The notes under the pieces are model-generated. The model was not told the DNA's origin. It searched no databases and saw only the letters and a program-made list of their open reading frames with translations. From a virus: a stretch of 64,000 bases of DNA. The stretch lies in UHGV virus genome UHGV-0311442. One strand, 5' to 3'. Each line of letters begins with the position of its first letter. Within the stretch, counting starts at the first letter, position 1. Positions 18,904 to 25,331 of the stretch are shown in pieces. A program made the position numbers and the translations under genes.

Positions 18904-19677
18904 CTATTGATTAAGTTTTACATCGGCAATAAACAGCAATTGTTTACCATGTTGCTGCACTTCTTTCCAACCTAGTTTCATAGCAGCGTCAACAACATCT
19001 AACATGCTGTAACGGGACATCAACGCGGTTGATTTTGTTCCTGACATTAAATAAAGCGGCTCATTAGGGCAACGGTCTCGAGCATCAGGAAGTTCTCGAA
19101 TAACCGCTGAGCCTTCGGGTGCGGTAACAACGTGAATCACGGTAAATGGTCTCTTATGCGTTAAATAGATACGAAATCCAACGTGTTCAGATTCATGAAA
19201 GATTTTCTTCACAACCACATCTTTTAGTGTTGTCTGAACATCATCCCCAGGTAATATCGTGGATTCACGAGAAACGAAACAACGACTATTTTCAATCGTG
19301 GAGAAATAATTACGTATCGGCAAACTGGCGTTATGATCGCGCAGTTTTTTGCTCAATAGATCGAAGTTCAGTTCTTTAACTTTTTCTAACCACTCTTTGG
19401 CTTGTTGAATGTAATAACTACCAACAGCGCGATAAGTTAATACCTTACCTGTGCTCACTTTCCAAAGCTTGATGCTTAGTGAATTTGGCTTATAGCGACG
19501 ATACTCACCCTGCGTATGGTTGATGCGCTCGTAACGCTCTACATCATCAACTGGTGCAGATTCGACCGATTGTAATTGCAGCGTACGATCTAATCTATCG
19601 GCAAATAGTAGTGATGATAGCGGGCCTTCGATCATATACGGTTCGGTTTTAAAGATATCGTCTAAATGGACTTTCAT
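18904..19677 (-). CDS. GW...QLLF-motif paralog family member (257 aa)
   Basis: C-terminus AMKLGWKEVQQHGKQLLFIADV shared with three neighbours. Confidence 0.55.
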   Translation of the reverse strand: MKVHLDDIFKTEPYMIEGPLSSLLFADRLDRTLQLQSVESAPVDDVERYERINHTQGEYRRYKPNSLSIKLWKVSTGKVLTYRAVGSYYIQQAKEWLEKVKELNFDLLSKKLRDHNASLPIRNYFSTIENSRCFVSRESTILPGDDVQTTLKDVVVKKIFHESEHVGFRIYLTHKRPFTVIHVVTAPEGSAVIRELPDARDRCPNEPLYLMSGTKSTALMSRYSMLDVVDAAMKLGWKEVQQHGKQLLFIADVKLNQ

Positions 19678-19744
19678 TTCTATTTCCTTCTTAACAAAAG
19701 CCGCGACTAAAGCGCGGCAGTTAGAGAAAGTGTAGTTTCACTTA

Positions 19745-20896
19745 TTAAAGGTCAGCAACAAACAGCAGCTGACTGCCGTACGGTTCGACAGATTTCCAAC
19801 CGTAATCTTTACCGATCGTCGTTAGATGGCCGGTATTTAACTTTTTGTCAACCATCCGCAGACGCATCATTAGCGTATTGGATTCTGCCGCATCGAGTAA
19901 CAACGCAGGTTCTTTTTCAGTGCGGTCATCCGCTTTCGGGAAGAAACTGTAATACTGACTTTTGGGCAGTTCGATTGTCAACGTATAGTTTTTCTTTGTA
20001 ATGAATAACGCCATCCCTTCGAAATTACAATCGAAACGATATTCCCAACCCGCCTCGGCTAAAACGTCTTTTAGCATTTCCATGACTTTAAGCTGGTTAA
20101 CGCTAGGCAGTCGGTAAGCTGCAAGGTTACTTGGAAATATGCGTATACCGTCGACGACACTATCGGTGGTTTCGTCAATAAGTTCAGGATAACGTTGCGA
20201 GAAAATATGATCGCTCTTGCTTTTCTCTTCGATGTCACGAATGAATTGGGCTATTTCGTCTCTTAAGCCAGACACTTGATTTTCTCCTTCGACTTCAATA
20301 ATCTGGTGGGGTTCGCCGCTAATTAAAATGTGGTAAACGATGTCGTCGGTAGAACGGTAAGTGAGTTTGATAGCTTTATCACTTAACATTTCGTAGCGGA
20401 AGAAACTTTCGTACCAAGTTGACCCGAAATCGTTTCGTGTAAGTTCCTGCTCAACTTTGATGGTTTTTGCTTCAAAACCAATTAACCCACTTAATAACGC
20501 GTGTTCTGGTTTAGTTAAAATGTTCGCACCGTGAAAGGGCACTTTCTCAAGCTGAAAACATAAATTACTGACTTTACCACTTGGGAAGACCTTAAACATA
20601 ATCTTCCGGCTGCTACTCTTTTCCCTAACAACGAGTTTACGGTAATTTAGTCCACAATTTGTGTAAACCGCGAACTTGTAACCTTCAATTTCTTCATCGT
20701 AAGTACAGACATCGACAGGTGCGATAATCTCATTGTATTCAGTAAGTACACAGCAGCCCAAGTTATAACCAAACAACTCACGTTGTAATGAAGATTCGAT
20801 GGTTAAGCTTGGTAGTGACCAAGTCCGATTATAGCATCTGTCCATCAGTTCTTTTAGGATCTTGGCATGTCCTGGCTTAGAAATAATATTTCGCAT
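19745..20896 (-). CDS. GW...QLLF-motif paralog family member (383 aa)
   Basis: C-terminus GKDYGWKSVEPYGSQLLFVADL. Confidence 0.55.
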   Translation of the reverse strand: MRNIISKPGHAKILKELMDRCYNRTWSLPSLTIESSLQRELFGYNLGCCVLTEYNEIIAPVDVCTYDEEIEGYKFAVYTNCGLNYRKLVVREKSSSRKIMFKVFPSGKVSNLCFQLEKVPFHGANILTKPEHALLSGLIGFEAKTIKVEQELTRNDFGSTWYESFFRYEMLSDKAIKLTYRSTDDIVYHILISGEPHQIIEVEGENQVSGLRDEIAQFIRDIEEKSKSDHIFSQRYPELIDETTDSVVDGIRIFPSNLAAYRLPSVNQLKVMEMLKDVLAEAGWEYRFDCNFEGMALFITKKNYTLTIELPKSQYYSFFPKADDRTEKEPALLLDAAESNTLMMRLRMVDKKLNTGHLTTIGKDYGWKSVEPYGSQLLFVADL

Positions 20897-20926
20897 TTTT
20901 ACTCTCCTTTAGGGTTTTTTTGTTAC

Positions 20927-21481
20927 TTAAGCAGGGTAAGCTAAAAACAACAACTGCTGGCCGAGTTTACGTACAGTATACCAACCGTGGGCTTTAGCGA
21001 CCGCGATCAACGTTTCCCAGTCATCAACATCACACTGCTCATTCCGAAGTCTTGTAAAGAGTGCCTCGGCTTCGCTTTGGTTTAATAACTTACCTGGGTT
21101 GTCTGGGGTGCAGTCAGTAGGGGTTGGAAAGAAAGTATACTGACGCGCTAGGAGAAAATCGACCAGATACTTGGTATTTTCTTTATAAACCAGCGTGGAA
21201 GACTTTCCTTCGTGGAAGAAGCTGCCTGTTTTCCAAGCGCTATCCCCCAGTAAGCTCTGAAGGTAATCTGTAAAGCCCGTTCTGAAAGGGATATGGTTTT
21301 TACGTGTGATGTTACGACGCAGCGGGGTTTCCTCTACAGCTTGTACACCCACCCCTACTATCATCGCACCTGGCTGAATAATGCTATTGGTCAGTACGGT
21401 ATAAGGACGGACAAAGAAATGTTCGCCTACGCCTTTTTCAAGGGTTTGGATAATTTCATTTTTCAGTTCAGTTTGAAACAT
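20927..21481 (-). CDS. GW...QLLF-motif paralog family member (184 aa)
   Basis: C-terminus AKAHGWYTVRKLGQQLLFLAYPA. Confidence 0.55.
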   Translation of the reverse strand: MFQTELKNEIIQTLEKGVGEHFFVRPYTVLTNSIIQPGAMIVGVGVQAVEETPLRRNITRKNHIPFRTGFTDYLQSLLGDSAWKTGSFFHEGKSSTLVYKENTKYLVDFLLARQYTFFPTPTDCTPDNPGKLLNQSEAEALFTRLRNEQCDVDDWETLIAVAKAHGWYTVRKLGQQLLFLAYPA

Positions 21482-21510
21482 GGTATATTCTCCTTTTTCG
21501 GTTTTCTTAA

Positions 21511-22248
21511 TTACGCGGTTTTAATTAACAGCAGATAGTCCTTCGTAATCTCAGCACAACCCCACCCTCTCATCGCGGCGATTTTACGAAGATCAATTTT
21601 CTCGTGATATCTCAATAAGGGATCGCCTGAGTTAATCTCAACCAGGTGTGTGGCTTTAGAAATCGTTTCTACATCAGGGATCTGTTTTGCTAAGTCGGAT
21701 GCAATTAACTCGATGATACGGTATCCCTCTAACACAGAAACATAGATGCGCAAACCATATAGCGTGCCTTCGTCTTCTAATGGACAAAGATCGATGCCGG
21801 GTCCAAGCAGTGATAACTCGACGTTATCGGGAAGGTTTTCTGCATTTCGGAGTAACCCTATCCCATTTCTAAACAGAGGGAAGTAAGAGAATAGTGGTGG
21901 TAAAGCCCAACCGTTCCCAATAAGCACATCAGCGATACTCGTAGGTGTGTTCGCAAGAAGACGAATGTGGTCAGCCACAACTTCAAGTTCGGCGTCACTG
22001 ATCAACTTATAGATTAACATGACACTGGTTTCGGTATTAATAACAAAGAAGACGCGGTTGGCGTAACTGCCTATCACGTATTCGTCAATCATACAGTCGA
22101 TAACGTCACTGTCTGGATAATCTTCAGGTTTAATTGTTCCAGCATCGATTAACTTAGCAGGTTGCGATTGTTTTATTAGTTCGTTAACCACCGTAGAAGA
22201 AAGTTCTAAACTGGTGTTGGTAAAGATATCGTCTAATAATTCTTTCAT
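21511..22248 (-). CDS. GW...LL-motif paralog family member, divergent (245 aa)
   Basis: C-terminus AAMRGWGCAEITKDYLLLIKTA. Confidence 0.5.
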   Translation of the reverse strand: MKELLDDIFTNTSLELSSTVVNELIKQSQPAKLIDAGTIKPEDYPDSDVIDCMIDEYVIGSYANRVFFVINTETSVMLIYKLISDAELEVVADHIRLLANTPTSIADVLIGNGWALPPLFSYFPLFRNGIGLLRNAENLPDNVELSLLGPGIDLCPLEDEGTLYGLRIYVSVLEGYRIIELIASDLAKQIPDVETISKATHLVEINSGDPLLRYHEKIDLRKIAAMRGWGCAEITKDYLLLIKTA

Positions 22249-22516
22249 GATTTACTCGCTAATCCCAATGAAGGGAAGGCTATTATTATGGATTGTAAAA
22301 GAGGTATAAGGAAGTCACTACGTTCCTCTGGGAAGAGTATGTCGGTATACTCCGTATACCTCCGCTATTTATATCCGTATACATAATGCCCCCTACCCCC
22401 TACCGGTATCCCGAGTAGCAGAATAAAGGGACATAATGTAATTTTTAGTAACCTTTAACGAAAGGTACTAAAAGGGTAACGTGTCCGTAGGGACTGAACT
22501 GGTACTTCAGTCCCTA

Positions 22517-22548
22517 TTCACTTAAGTAAAATATATCTGAAATCAATT
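22517..22548 (-). promoter_or_regulatory. conserved promoter-like motif, copy 2 (variant)
   Basis: minus-strand reading GATTTCAGATATATTTTACTTAAGTGAA followed by a hairpin; lies about 265 nt upstream of 21511..22248. Confidence 0.4.
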
Positions 22549-22568
22549 CCGATCTAAGGAACGTCCCG

Positions 22569-23534
22569 ATGGAGAAATCCAGTGTTGATTTTTTCTCAAT
22601 TGGTATCGTCGCGGAAGACAAACCCCGTGGTACAGATCGGGTAAAAGTGATACCAATTGAAACTAACTTTGCTAACCCTACCGTGGTGCAATCTGTTTCT
22701 TCAGCAACTGAAAAGACGCATGAAACGTCTGGTGCAACAGATAACCTAACCATTAAGACGGGTAACACGATAACAGCAAAGTGGTGGAAGTTTAACTCCA
22801 ACCGAATTAATTCCCCTGACGTTAAACGAGAAGACTACGTTATCTTGTTACGTTTGGGGAAAACCGATATTTATTTTTGGATTGATCTGAACTTCGCTAA
22901 CGTTAAGCGATTAGAAGATGCGGTTTATGCGTGGTCGGCTGACCCTGAAAACCAAATGGCGGATGACTTGTCCAATGCGTATGTGTTGAACGTTTCGACG
23001 ATTGACAAACATATCACGCTAAGAACAAGTATGGTGAATGGCGAGAAAGCGGCGTGGTTGTTTCAGTTTGATAATGCAAACGGTACGTGGCAGTGCGTTG
23101 ACCATAAAGGAAACAAGTATTACATTAACTCGGTTGAAGATGATCTCGGGTTTGAGAATGCGATGCTTTCAAAAGTGAACATCAACAAAGAAGATGCGTT
23201 CATTTATTCAAAGCGTTCTATTAACCTGGAAACGAAAACGATTAATGAAAAATGCGAAGTTCGCAATACAGAAGCAGCGAAATCCGTTACGTTTAAAACA
23301 CAAACCTGGTTAACGGAAGCGGGAAGTTCGACAACGTTTAAAACGCCGAACTTTAAACAAGAAGGGAAGGAAGCGATGTTCACCGGTAATTTGGAAATCG
23401 CTAAGAACTTCAAATACGGTGGTACGGGTGAAGGTGTGGGTGTCTTTACGGTTAAAGATGCTGTTATTTCCGGTATTACCTTTAGCGTTCACATTCACCA
23501 AGGTAAACATGGTCCGACATCACCTCCGCAATAA
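22569..23534 (+). CDS. hypothetical protein (321 aa), possibly virion-associated
   Basis: ORF track; AAGGA RBS; plus-strand gene isolated between minus-strand blocks. Confidence 0.5.
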   Translation: MEKSSVDFFSIGIVAEDKPRGTDRVKVIPIETNFANPTVVQSVSSATEKTHETSGATDNLTIKTGNTITAKWWKFNSNRINSPDVKREDYVILLRLGKTDIYFWIDLNFANVKRLEDAVYAWSADPENQMADDLSNAYVLNVSTIDKHITLRTSMVNGEKAAWLFQFDNANGTWQCVDHKGNKYYINSVEDDLGFENAMLSKVNINKEDAFIYSKRSINLETKTINEKCEVRNTEAAKSVTFKTQTWLTEAGSSTTFKTPNFKQEGKEAMFTGNLEIAKNFKYGGTGEGVGVFTVKDAVISGITFSVHIHQGKHGPTSPPQ

Positions 23535-23740
23535 TTCCCCTTTTTCTTACGTTGTTTTTATATATTGTGACCTGACGTTGGTAAAACTTTTTATCAACAC
23601 TTTTCTTAAACCCATCGTTTAGTTAAGCAGGCCACTTTTTTCGCGCACTCTACTCCTCCCTACGGGGAGGAGCTATCTTATGCTTCGGTTGTAACACACG
23701 TCGGTCTTAGACCACCTTCCTTTTGAAATGGAGAGCTGTT

Positions 23741-23950
23741 ATGTCTATTAAAGAGTTCTCTTCTGCTGAGCATATTCCAGAAGAGTTTAAGAAAATCGGT
23801 AACGTTAGCGCCTTCGGCGATACCGTTGATCATGTAACTGGTAAGCTGGCTGCTGAAGCCGAAAAAATTGGCGGCGACGCATTCAAAGTTATCGGTATTT
23901 CCGGCAACAACAAACTGCACGGTAACGCGATTGTCTACAAAAAAGACTAA
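23741..23950 (+). CDS. DUF1471 (BhsA/YhcN-family)-like small protein without signal peptide
   Basis: GDTVDHVTGKLAAEAEKIGGDAFKVIGISGNNKLHGNAIVYK matches the DUF1471 domain pattern; GGAG RBS; flanked by hairpins. Confidence 0.55.
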   Translation: MSIKEFSSAEHIPEEFKKIGNVSAFGDTVDHVTGKLAAEAEKIGGDAFKVIGISGNNKLHGNAIVYKKD

Positions 23951-23952
23951 GC

Positions 23953-24010
23953 GAAAAAAAAACGTGCTACTCCTACCCTCTAAGAGGGTAGGAGGTTACT
24001 TTATTTTTTT
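23953..24010. terminator. bidirectional rho-independent terminator
   Basis: hairpin CTCCTACCCTC-taag-AGGGTAGGAG flanked by A8 and T-run between convergent genes. Confidence 0.6.
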
Positions 24011-25263: not shown

Positions 25264-25331
25264 AGCTCTTTTCCTCTATAGATTCAAGTCATAGTATGAA
25301 CTTCGACGCCCACGGACTATAGGAGTAGAGA

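What the first reader, a model, noticed from the sequence alone, without database searches (positions are those of the whole stretch)
22249..22513. 265-bp non-coding region with inverted and direct repeats
Between promoter-like copy 2 and the start of 21511..22248 there is an unusually long ORF-free stretch containing a perfect inverted repeat GGTATAC-TCC-GTATACC (22344-22360), a tandem CCCCCTAC-CCCCTAC repeat (22389-22403), and a stable stem-loop right after the motif. Only short, RBS-less ORFs are present. Candidates: long structured 5' UTR, small RNA, or a protein-binding or origin-like element.
Basis: seen in the sequence. Interest (0 to 1): 0.5.

Follow-up and report, generated by a model that had tools for sequence, protein, structure and literature searches.

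The report
Conserved non-coding module upstream of baseplate gene
The ORF-free stretch is the control region between two back-to-back genes of a giant (SPN3US-like) phage, and its core is a roughly 150-base non-coding element with an evolutionarily maintained hairpin that is shared by at least seven related phage groups and matches no described RNA family.

Summary
The spacer 22249-22568 (320 bp) lies between a leftward gene (21511-22248) and the baseplate gene (22569-23534) of an SPN3US/Erskinevirus-like jumbo phage. It has three layers.

1. A minus-strand early-promoter motif (22526-22539, one of 4 copies in the window) followed by an 11-bp stem-loop.
2. The scar of a 25-aa small gene that close relatives still carry.
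3. A conserved non-coding module (about 22296-22448).

The module sits upstream of the baseplate gene in the window clade, Erskine-, Seoul-, Machina-, Wellington- and Derbicusvirus and one IMG/VR lineage. It is absent from phiKZ. Within the window clade it is 98.5% identical, more than either flanking gene. The hairpin changes sequence between genera but always pairs (6 of 7 pairs compensatory). There is no conserved ORF, tRNA or Rfam match.

Best reading: a cis-acting RNA-level leader module. It is probably transcribed leftward from a conserved TAC-N15-TNTG site. In this lineage it also carries a TAC-N16-TATG late-type start at 22341 for the baseplate mRNA. The strand and the mechanism are inferred, not shown.

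The parts
22526..22539 (-). Early (virion RNA polymerase type) promoter-like motif CAGATATATTTTAC, reading leftward
   Evidence: One of 4 minus-strand copies in the window (18240, 22526, 54686, 58594). The other three lie about 53 nt upstream of minus-strand ATGs. The same motif stands upstream of minus-strand genes in Stratton, SNUABM_4, Phobos and Derbicus. It fits the AT-rich roughly 10-nt early motif described for RNAP-encoding jumbo phages (PMC7598289).
22488..22516 (.). 11-bp perfect stem-loop just downstream of the early promoter (5' stem-loop of the leftward early transcript)
   Evidence: I3. All four promoter copies are followed by a hairpin. The stem covaries within the clade: GGGACTGAA, GGAGCTGAA, GGGGTTGAA and GGGGCTGAA, each with a matching 3' arm. 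Two intermediates (L081, L083) are G.T on the plus strand.
22443..22473 (.). Imperfect 13-bp hairpin; remnant of the 3' end and hairpin of a 25-aa small ORF that was deleted in this genome
   Evidence: I4. Relatives L009/10/11/82/83/87/L101 carry the sORF with a Shine-Dalgarno sequence. L018 and L081 show the same hairpin overlapping its stop codon. The window, L008, L079 and L084 lack about 100 bp.
22419..22446 (-). Block D': W-rich TTAC (22446-22438), 15 nt, then TCTG (22422-22419). A promoter-like site reading leftward, with the predicted start near 22419.
   Evidence: The same geometry, (W-rich)TAC-N15(+/-1)-TNTG, is present in most of the 19 representatives of all genera, with a one-base shift in some and TATA in Derbicusvirus. 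The distance from the C-run is fixed at 35-37 nt. The analogous TAC-N15/16-TATG stands upstream of the bhsA-like gene in all genera and is enriched in intergenic DNA of the window. Function is inferred.
22389..22400 (.). Block C: CCCCC-TA-CCCCC (G5-UA-G5 on the minus strand), preceded by the semi-conserved ACATAATG
   Evidence: Unique in the window. Conserved as C5-N2-3-C5 in all lineages.
22344..22360 (.).
   Evidence: Every lineage has a hairpin here with a different stem (GGTGAC, GGTATCC, GGTACTC, GGTACCC, GGTAGC, GGAT, GTCT, GGAG), always between GTC and TCCG. Six of 7 pairs change on both sides. There are 25 double-change cells against 8.9 in shuffles (0 of 500). Covariation is 0.427 against at most 0.07 for the slid controls.
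22333..22343 (.). Block A (GAGTATGTC; AAGGAWGTC in other genera), with block B CCTCCG at 22359-22364 on the other side of the hairpin
   Evidence: GTCG and CTCCG are invariant in alignment A2. The outer GGA/UCC pairing is kept in 13-15 of 15 sequences but does not covary, and it is broken in the window.
22319..22341 (+). TAC-N16-TATG late-type promoter-like site on the plus strand, with a predicted start at G22341 for the baseplate mRNA (228-nt leader with hairpin 1 at nt 4-20)
   Evidence: 22341 is the only plus-strand TATG between itself and the ATG at 22569; the other TATG in the spacer is at 22290, in the unconserved part. The proximal GTAGTATGA site that lies 14-22 nt before the ATG in other genera is missing here. 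The T-3ATG+1 rule for phiKZ late promoters comes from PMC7598289. The plus-strand fold puts hairpin 1 at the 5' end. Inferred.
22309..22327 (.). Second small hairpin AGGAAGTCACTACGTTCCT, carrying a duplicate of block A (ATAAGGAAGTC)
   Evidence: Shared only with Erskinevirus, which has two AATAAGGATGTC copies. On the minus strand it is followed by the U-rich UUAUACCUCUUUUAC.
22328..22404 (+). Extent of the covariance-model match to the module core (blocks A to C)
   Evidence: Model R1 gives 66.8 bits, E 1.7e-15, and this is the only hit in the 64-kb window. There is one hit in each related locus. The Derbicusvirus loci, which were not in the training set, score 27-31 bits. There is no hit in the phiKZ, Vibrio or L091 loci.

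Best explanation
The 320-bp spacer is the compound control region between two divergently transcribed gene blocks of an SPN3US-like jumbo phage that encodes its own RNA polymerases. Its core, about 22296-22448, is a conserved non-coding module that acts in cis at the RNA level.

Most likely reading:
1. The module is transcribed leftward (minus strand) as the leader of whichever gene heads the leftward block. Transcription starts at the conserved TAC-N15-TNTG site near 22419. In this genome it also starts at the early promoter at 22526-22539.
2. The leader carries a G5-N2-3-G5 tract and then a GGAGG-hairpin-CCGACAUCC segment followed by a pyrimidine/U-rich tail. The hairpin is kept by compensatory changes.
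3. I take the hairpin and tail to be a leader hairpin that sets read-through, stability or protein binding of that transcript. This makes it an attenuator-like or stabiliser-like element.
4. In the window's lineage the proximal late promoter of the baseplate gene was displaced by the insertion of an early promoter and a small gene. The module acquired a perfect TAC-N16-TATG site, so the baseplate mRNA probably starts at G22341 with the hairpin at its 5' end and a 228-nt leader.

Shown: non-coding status, conservation, covariation of the hairpin, fixed spacing, copy number and linkage.
Inferred: both start sites, the functional strand and the mechanism.
For: Identity and context:
- The baseplate protein is 73% identical to that of Stratton and phiEaH2.
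- Module blocks are shared with Stratton and Asesino, SPN3US, SPAsTU, SNUABM_29, SNUABM_4 and ChrisDB, IMG/VR and metagenome relatives, and Kwan, Phobos and Derbicus.
- phiKZ and a Vibrio phage have only 67-75-bp spacers without the module.

Constraint:
- 22330-22409 is 98.5% identical within the clade. The baseplate CDS is 84-97%, the leftward CDS 68-86%, and 22250-22289 is 42%.
- The hairpin covaries.
- The covariance model finds one copy per locus.
- There is no tRNA and no Rfam match. The short frames differ between genera.

Leftward reading:
- The TAC-N15-TNTG geometry is kept in nearly all lineages, with fixed spacing to the C-run.
- It is kept even in the window clade, where the overlapping plus-strand promoter is gone.
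- Seoul-, Erskine- and Wellingtonvirus have no other promoter-like site for the leftward gene in the spacer.
- A U-rich tail follows the hairpin on the minus strand in most genera.
- The minus strand folds better relative to shuffles in 11 of 13 representatives (mean z -1.41 against -0.54).

Plus-strand start in the window.
Against: - No transcript data exist for any of these phages, so both start sites are guesses from motif geometry. TNTG is not the strict TATG that phiKZ nvRNAP needs in vitro.
- The hairpin is Watson-Crick in every lineage, so it gives no strand information.
- Three G.U-type cases (L081 and L083 in the promoter-proximal hairpin, and the L071 outer pair) fit the plus strand, not the minus.
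- No canonical intrinsic terminator is called in the window or in SPN3US. Seven bases separate the stem from the U-tract, and the window itself lacks the U-tract next to hairpin 1.
- In Derbicusvirus the early promoter lies between the module and the leftward gene, so the module is not part of the early transcript there.
- The only gene constantly linked to the module is the baseplate gene, which would equally fit a plus-strand or DNA-level role.
- G-run:tail pairing shows no advantage for cognate pairs.
Confidence: 0.42

Rival explanations
1. The ancestral function is on the plus strand. The module is an upstream leader or regulatory RNA of the baseplate gene in all lineages. A distal start lies near block A, so that hairpin 1 is a 5'-terminal stabilising stem-loop, and the C-rich tract is a protein- or ribosome-contact site.
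For: - The baseplate gene is the only constant neighbour, and orientation relative to it is fixed.
- The window clade has a perfect TAC-N16-TATG that starts at the base of the hairpin.
- Asesino has TAC-N15-GATG at the same place.
- The G.U-type intermediates fit the plus strand.
- The plus-strand leader folds with z -4.0 and puts the hairpin at nt 4-20.
Against: - Outside the window clade block A reads GATG, GAAG, GGTG or GAGG rather than TATG.
- A proximal TATGA promoter 14-22 nt before the ATG would exclude the module from the main baseplate mRNA.
- The plus strand of the core is no more structured than shuffles (mean z -0.54).
- The TTAC site is retained in the window clade after the proximal promoter was lost, which this reading leaves unexplained.
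Confidence: 0.2
2. The module is a stand-alone small RNA of roughly 90-125 nt on the minus strand. It has its own promoter (block D'), a G-rich single-stranded seed (G5-N3-G5 and GGAGG) and a hairpin with a U-rich tail as its 3' end. It acts in trans on phage or host RNAs or on ribosomes.
For: - The order promoter-like site, variable 5' part, conserved G-tract, hairpin and U-rich tail is that of a typical bacterial sRNA gene.
- In Machinavirus a separate TAC-N15-TATG site follows the tail, and in Derbicusvirus an early promoter does. In those phages the module looks like its own unit.
Against: - There is no canonical terminator.
- In Seoul-, Erskine- and Wellingtonvirus the next gene starts 30-50 nt after the tail with no other promoter, which fits a leader better.
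- The window lacks the U-tract next to hairpin 1.
- No target can be named.
Confidence: 0.13
3. The module works as double-stranded DNA. It would be an array of binding sites for a phage transcription or nucleoid-type protein that organises the two divergent promoters. The sites would be the AGGTCA/ATGTCG/AAGTCA repeats, the palindrome and the C5-N3-C5 tract. The palindrome might act as a cruciform.
For: - Spacing between block C and block D is fixed despite variable sequence between them.
- There are two or three A[AGT]GTC[AG] repeats per module.
- The module lies between divergent promoters.
- Strong primary-sequence conservation of the blocks is typical of protein sites.
Against: - The palindrome arms change freely between genera as long as they stay complementary, and stem and loop lengths vary (4-7 bp, 3-11 nt). 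That is the signature of a folded single strand, not of a conserved protein's half-sites.
- No DNA-binding protein is linked to the locus; Pfam finds nothing in the neighbours.
Confidence: 0.15
4. The module is a replication origin or a packaging site.
For: - It lies at a switch of gene orientation and at the minimum of cumulative GC skew.
- It has repeats and a hairpin, and it is single copy per genome.
Against: - GC skew here simply follows the coding strand, so it is not independent evidence.
- There is no AT-rich unwinding region or iteron array.
- The module is absent from phiKZ and other relatives that must also have origins.
Confidence: 0.03

Closest known systems
Early promoters of phiKZ-like jumbo phages (virion RNA polymerase) and their transcripts
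   Same: An AT-rich motif of about 10 nt, highly conserved, occurs in several copies in gene orientation upstream of presumed early operons (PMC7598289; PMC8244752). The window has four copies, including 22526-22539.
   Different: Typical phiKZ leaders are 31-40 nt. Here the distance to the ATG is 274 nt, and the transcript would cross a conserved module and the scar of a lost small gene.
phiKZ late promoters (5'-TATG-3' with the start at G) and middle promoters (TAC(T) about 22 nt upstream of the start)
   Same: - The proximal site GTAGTATGA lies 14-22 nt before the baseplate ATG in relatives.
- TAC-N15/16-TATG sites occur in intergenic DNA.
- TAC-N16-TATG lies at 22319-22341.
   Different: The leftward site in block D' has TNTG (TCTG, TTTG or TGTG), not TATG. 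Combining TAC at about -19 with TATG is my inference from these genomes and is not a published consensus. No polymerase assay exists for this phage group.
Leader RNA elements with a conserved linear motif plus a hairpin of free sequence (lambda nut boxA/boxB, transcription attenuators, 5' stabiliser hairpins such as that of ompA)
   Same: Conserved single-stranded blocks flank a hairpin whose stem covaries. The element sits in a leader between a promoter and the first gene, and a U-rich tract follows the hairpin on one strand.
   Different: No antitermination factor, terminator/antiterminator alternative or RNase dependence can be shown. The resemblance is architectural and recalled from general knowledge, not tested.
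CsrA/RsmA binding sites (SELEX consensus RUACARGGAUGU)
   Same: Block A on the plus strand reads A(A/U)AAGGAUGU in several genera, which matches ARGGAUGU. Erskinevirus has two copies.
   Different: - The ACA reported as invariant is absent.
- GGA becomes GGG in the L071/SNUABM_6 type and GUA in the window's proximal copy.
- The GGA is not in a hairpin loop.
This is a lead only.

Membership tests
Any Rfam 15 RNA family | Covariance-model score at or near the family's gathering threshold | tested here: not met
   permissive E-value mode on 21000-24000. The best overlap is U5 snRNA at 23 bits against a gathering score of 40 (E = 2), which is noise.
tRNA / tmRNA | Cloverleaf detected by ARAGORN | tested here: not met
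   no gene in the whole window.
Jumbo-phage early (vRNAP) promoter | Highly conserved AT-rich motif of about 10 nt, repeated in the genome, in gene orientation upstream of operons | tested here: met
   There are four minus-strand copies, with 0 of 100 shuffles reaching 4. Three lie 53 nt before an ATG. The same motif occurs in other genera.
Jumbo-phage early (vRNAP) promoter | Transcription start about 10 nt downstream, early in infection and independent of protein synthesis | not testable with these tools
   Needs 5' end mapping or in vitro transcription.
phiKZ-type late promoter | 5'-TATG-3' overlapping the start site, upstream of a late (structural) gene | tested here: met
   TATG at 22338-22341 is the only conserved plus-strand TATG upstream of the baseplate gene. 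It is preceded by TAC at N16, as at other intergenic sites. This meets the sequence criterion only.
phiKZ-type late promoter | Recognition by the non-virion RNA polymerase | not testable with these tools
   No assay is available.
Intrinsic (Rho-independent) terminator / attenuator | G+C-rich stem of at least 5 bp, loop of 3-8 nt, and a U-tract starting 0-2 nt after the stem | tested here: not met
   No site is called on either strand in window 22100-22700 or in the SPN3US spacer. The U-rich tail starts 7 nt after hairpin 1 unless a 3-bp outer helix forms. The window lacks the tail at that position.
Structured RNA element (generic) | Base pairs maintained by compensatory substitutions across lineages | tested here: met
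   In hairpin 1, 6 of 7 pairs change on both sides. Zero of 500 shuffles reach the observed covariation, and the slid controls are 6- to 14-fold lower. No other helix of the module is supported.
Protein-coding small gene | An ORF conserved in frame and length across relatives | tested here: not met
   Plus-strand frames from the ATG in block A run 9 to 39 codons or are absent. Minus-strand frames run 1 to 32 codons. A real 25-aa ORF exists in relatives, but in the segment that is deleted here.
CsrA binding site | Invariant ACA and GGA, with GGA in a hairpin loop | tested here: not met
   ACA is absent. GGA is replaced in two lineages and is not in a loop.
Replication origin | AT-rich unwinding region with iterons or initiator boxes, and a skew switch independent of the coding strand | tested here: inconclusive
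   The skew minimum at about 22 kb coincides with the coding-strand switch. There is no iteron array.

The most novel reading that the evidence does not exclude
The module encodes a previously undescribed jumbo-phage RNA family. This would be a leftward RNA of about 100-130 nt whose G5-N3-G5 and GGAGG tracts are Shine-Dalgarno-like and capable of forming a G-quadruplex. It could act beyond its own leader in two ways. It could titrate 30S subunits or a host RNA-binding protein. Alternatively, it could pair with the fully complementary 5' leader of the late baseplate mRNA, which overlaps it over 22341-22419 in this genome, and so couple the early-to-late switch to an antisense interaction.
Probability: 0.1. 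Interest if true: 0.75.

Novelty: new variant of a known kind. Interest (0 to 1): 0.45.

Why it matters
Phages of this group transcribe their genomes with their own multisubunit RNA polymerases. It is still unclear what makes their middle and late promoters specific, beyond a four-base TATG. No non-coding RNA has been confirmed for them; the one sRNA predicted for phiKZ was not detected on northern blots (PMC8244752).

This locus offers a concrete, testable object:
- a non-coding module kept for the whole divergence of the SPN3US-like genera;
- a hairpin preserved by compensatory change;
- promoter-like sites at fixed spacing on both strands.

It also gives a natural experiment, because promoter order, a small gene and the proximal late promoter have been reshuffled between lineages. 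If the element controls timing or read-through of the flanking genes, it would be a first example of leader-RNA regulation in this phage group. If it does not, it still marks where to look for promoter determinants.

Tried and rejected
- Near-identity DNA search in GenBank phages found nothing. A distant search with the spacer plus flanks hit only the baseplate CDS. A search with the module alone gave only marginal hits to Asesino and SNUABM_29.
- The leftward 245-aa protein has no tblastn hit in phages and no Pfam or PHROG family. The neighbours therefore give no functional clue.
- A pattern scan of IMG/VR for the module skeleton returned 44 loci, but 40 were unrelated GC-rich sequence, mostly one recurring coding region.
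- RNAalifold on either strand supports only hairpin 1.
- I examined a second helix between blocks B and C by eye. It is compensatory in three lineages but cannot be aligned in the rest, so I do not claim it.
- Pairing of the G-run with the pyrimidine tail is strong on the minus strand (mean -13.2 kcal/mol against -6.6 on the plus strand). Non-cognate pairs do equally well, so there is no covariation.
- Pairing of ACGTTCCT (22320-22327) with the baseplate Shine-Dalgarno region AGGAACGT (22557-22564) is 8 bp (I6). It is about what chance gives in 320 bp, and Erskinevirus has no counterpart.
- Neither a conserved anti-Shine-Dalgarno occlusion of the baseplate ribosome-binding site nor a CsrA site held across lineages.
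- TTTTTAC as a general promoter word is confounded, because many copies are simply terminator U-tracts.
- Literature searches found no transcriptome of an SPN3US-like phage and no description of this element.

Full report
**1. What the window is**

The baseplate-type protein encoded at 22569-23534 matches PHROG 3216. It is 73% identical to the homologue of Erwinia phages Stratton and phiEaH2 and 62% identical to that of Salmonella phage SPN3US. The neighbouring large virion proteins match the same group. The window therefore comes from an SPN3US-like jumbo phage of the phiKZ type, which encodes its own RNA polymerases.

Nearly identical contigs exist in metagenomes and IMG/VR. A 221,873-bp circular 'plasmid' of a urinary E. 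coli isolate carries the same locus, which suggests E. coli as a host.

**2. Checking the observation**

The finding lies in the spacer between the leftward gene 21511-22248 and the rightward baseplate gene. The spacer is 320 bp (22249-22568), not 265 bp.

- the inverted repeat at 22344-22360;
- the C-repeat at 22389-22403;
- an 11-bp perfect stem-loop at 22488-22516;
- a further imperfect hairpin at 22443-22473.

The C5-N2-4-C5 pattern is unique in the 64 kb. The only ORFs are two 32-codon frames. There is no tRNA and no Rfam family, even at a permissive threshold.

**3. The promoter-like motif**

CAGATATAT(A/T)TTAC occurs four times, always on the minus strand. Three copies sit about 53 nt upstream of a minus-strand start codon. 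All four are followed by a stem-loop.

The same motif stands upstream of minus-strand genes in Stratton, SNUABM_4, Phobos and Derbicus. This is what the literature describes for early promoters of such phages: a highly conserved AT-rich motif of about 10 nt, findable by bioinformatics upstream of early operons (PMC7598289).

Copy 2 is 274 nt from the next ATG. phiKZ leaders are typically 31-40 nt (PMC8244752).

**4. Part of the length is a scar**

Close relatives (93-99% baseplate identity) have about 100 extra bases between the promoter stem-loop and the rest of the spacer. These bases encode a 25-aa protein on the minus strand with a good ribosome-binding site. Its two forms are MSTEKKSGLDEVIELFKRYNPAIPR and MFAEQKDGIEEVVRLFRHYSPYLPR.

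The window and three other contigs have lost this gene. The hairpin at 22443-22473 is what remains of its 3' end.

**5. The core is a conserved non-coding module**

The stretch from about 22296 to 22448 aligns with the spacer upstream of the baseplate gene in these groups:
- Erskinevirus;
- Seoulvirus and Machinavirus;
- Wellingtonvirus and Derbicusvirus;
- a further IMG/VR lineage.

Read on the plus strand, the module has this order:
1. Block A, AATAAAGGAWGTCGG.
2. A hairpin of free sequence.
3. Block B, CCTCCG.
4. 13-30 variable bases.
5. Block C, ACACAGAT-CCCCC-N2-3-CCCCC.
6. About 36 bases.
7. Block D, CGTAAAAAAG. In most genera this is followed by GTAGTATGA and the baseplate ribosome-binding site.

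phiKZ, a Vibrio phage and a 54%-identical metagenomic relative lack the module.

Within the window clade the module core is 98.5% identical on average. That is more than the baseplate gene (84-97%) or the leftward gene (68-86%). The leftmost part of the spacer is only 42% identical.

A covariance model built from 15 sequences finds exactly one copy in the window (22328-22404, 66.8 bits) and one in each related locus. This includes the Derbicusviruses, which were not used to build it. The skeleton pattern is also single copy in the four complete genomes held in IMG/VR.

**6. The inverted repeat is a real hairpin**

Every lineage has a different stem between GTC and TCCG:

| Lineage | Hairpin |
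|---|---|
| Window | GGTATAC / GTATACC |
| Erskinevirus | GGTGAC / GTCACC |
| SPN3US | GGTATCC / GGATACC |
| SPAsTU | GGTACTC / GAGTACC |
| SNUABM_29 | GGTACCC / GGGTACC |
| L071 | GGTAGC / GCTACC |
| L078 | GGAT / ATCC |
| Kwan | GTCT / AGAC |
| Machinavirus | GGAG / CTCC |

On alignment A2, six of the seven pairs change on both sides. There are 25 double-change cells against 8.9 in shuffles (0 of 500). The covariation score is 0.427, against 0.008-0.069 when the partner columns are slid.

Arms that change freely but stay complementary, with stems of 4-7 bp and loops of 3-11 nt, indicate a folded single strand rather than a conserved protein's palindromic site. No other helix is supported. 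RNAalifold predicts only this one. The G-run:tail pairing that many minus-strand folds show has no cognate advantage.

**7. Which strand?**

The hairpin is Watson-Crick everywhere, so it is silent on this.

Evidence for the minus strand:
- Block D read leftward is a W-rich TTAC, then 15 (+/-1) bases, then T-N-T-G in most of the 19 representatives, with a one-base shift in some and TATA in Derbicusvirus.
- The same geometry with TATG stands upstream of the bhsA-like gene in every genus. It is enriched in intergenic DNA of the window: 4 of 10 occurrences lie in roughly 8% of the sequence.
- The TTAC site is retained in the window clade even though the overlapping plus-strand promoter has gone.
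- Seoul-, Erskine- and Wellingtonvirus have no other candidate promoter for the leftward gene.
- A pyrimidine/U-rich tail follows the hairpin on this strand in most genera.
- The minus strand is more structured relative to shuffles in 11 of 13 representatives.

Evidence for the plus strand:
- The baseplate gene is the only constant neighbour. The leftward gene is a different protein in almost every genus.
- In Derbicusvirus the early promoter lies between the module and the leftward gene.
- The few G.U-type intermediates are plus-strand compatible.

I therefore rank the leftward leader reading first, but with only moderate confidence.

**8. A lineage-specific twist**

In other genera a TATGA site lies 14-22 nt before the baseplate ATG. 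This fits the phiKZ late promoter rule T-3ATG+1. The window has no such site. TAGTATGA occurs only at 25292, and the only plus-strand TATGs in the spacer are at 22290 (in the unconserved part) and 22341.

In the whole window clade block A reads GAGTATGTC instead of AAGGATGTC, and a TAC lies exactly 16 nt upstream. By elimination, the late baseplate mRNA of this phage most likely starts at G22341. That gives a 228-nt leader with the hairpin at nt 4-20. If so, early leftward and late rightward transcripts overlap in antisense over at least 22341-22419.

**9. What it is not**

- It is not a canonical terminator or a sigma-70 promoter.
- It is not coding.
- It is not a CsrA site in the strict sense.
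- An origin reading has no independent support, because the skew minimum follows the coding strand.
- I found no paper that describes the element or a transcriptome of this phage group.

**10. Verdict**

The stretch contains a new, well-conserved non-coding module of the SPN3US-like jumbo phages. It has one covarying hairpin and promoter-like sites on both strands. The mechanism remains inferred: a leader RNA element is most likely, and a small RNA or a DNA site is possible.

Noticed in passing
L101 (NZ_CP173450.1 5709-10851); module at L101:2501-2643: A 221,873-bp circular 'plasmid' (p98232-contig_4) of a human urinary E. coli isolate carries this locus. The module is 95% identical and the gene order is the same. 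It is evidently a jumbo phage genome of the window's clade deposited as a plasmid, which points to E. coli as a host.
   Followed up: partly
Relatives L009, L010, L011, L082, L083, L087 and L101, in the segment that corresponds to a deletion between window 22473 and 22480: A 25-aa minus-strand small gene with a good ribosome-binding site is present in two forms about 50% identical. It is frameshifted in a poly-A run in L018 and L081, and deleted in the window, L008, L079 and L084. PGAP did not annotate it in the E. coli record.
   Followed up: partly
window 23535-23741 (spacer between the baseplate gene and the bhsA/DUF1471-like gene): This is a second long non-coding stretch. It has a block YYACTTTTTTCGC conserved in all genera examined, a G+C-rich hairpin, and a TAC-N15-TATG promoter-like site with its G at 23682.
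   Followed up: partly
window 25289-25299, and the same spacer in L001, L003, L005 and L006: The near-palindrome TCATAGTATGA lies between two divergent virion-protein genes. It gives back-to-back TATG sites, one per strand, and is conserved in every genus. It is a likely bidirectional late promoter.
   Followed up: no
window 18904-21481 (three leftward genes), with Stratton gp194, SPN3US gp091, SNUABM_4 gp201, Phobos gp176 and Kwan gp195: These proteins share a C-terminal segment of about 65 residues (blastp E 1e-5 to 1e-13). They form a paralogous, fast-changing family next to the module. The gene directly beside the module (245 aa here) has no detectable relative in GenBank phages.
   Followed up: partly
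window 22345-22350, 22354-22359 and 22377-22382: There are three copies of the self-complementary hexamer GTATAC, so alternative pairings to hairpin 1 are possible in this clade. The minus-strand minimum-energy fold in fact prefers 22301-22312 paired with 22351-22362. This is not seen in other genera.
   Followed up: no
L006/L007/L097-L100 (Machinavirus spacers, about 100 bp to the left of the module): An extra covarying hairpin (for example GTATGGC-TCAT-CGCCATA(G/C)) lies downstream of a leftward TAC-N15-TATG site. These phages therefore have a separate proximal promoter for the leftward gene.
   Followed up: no
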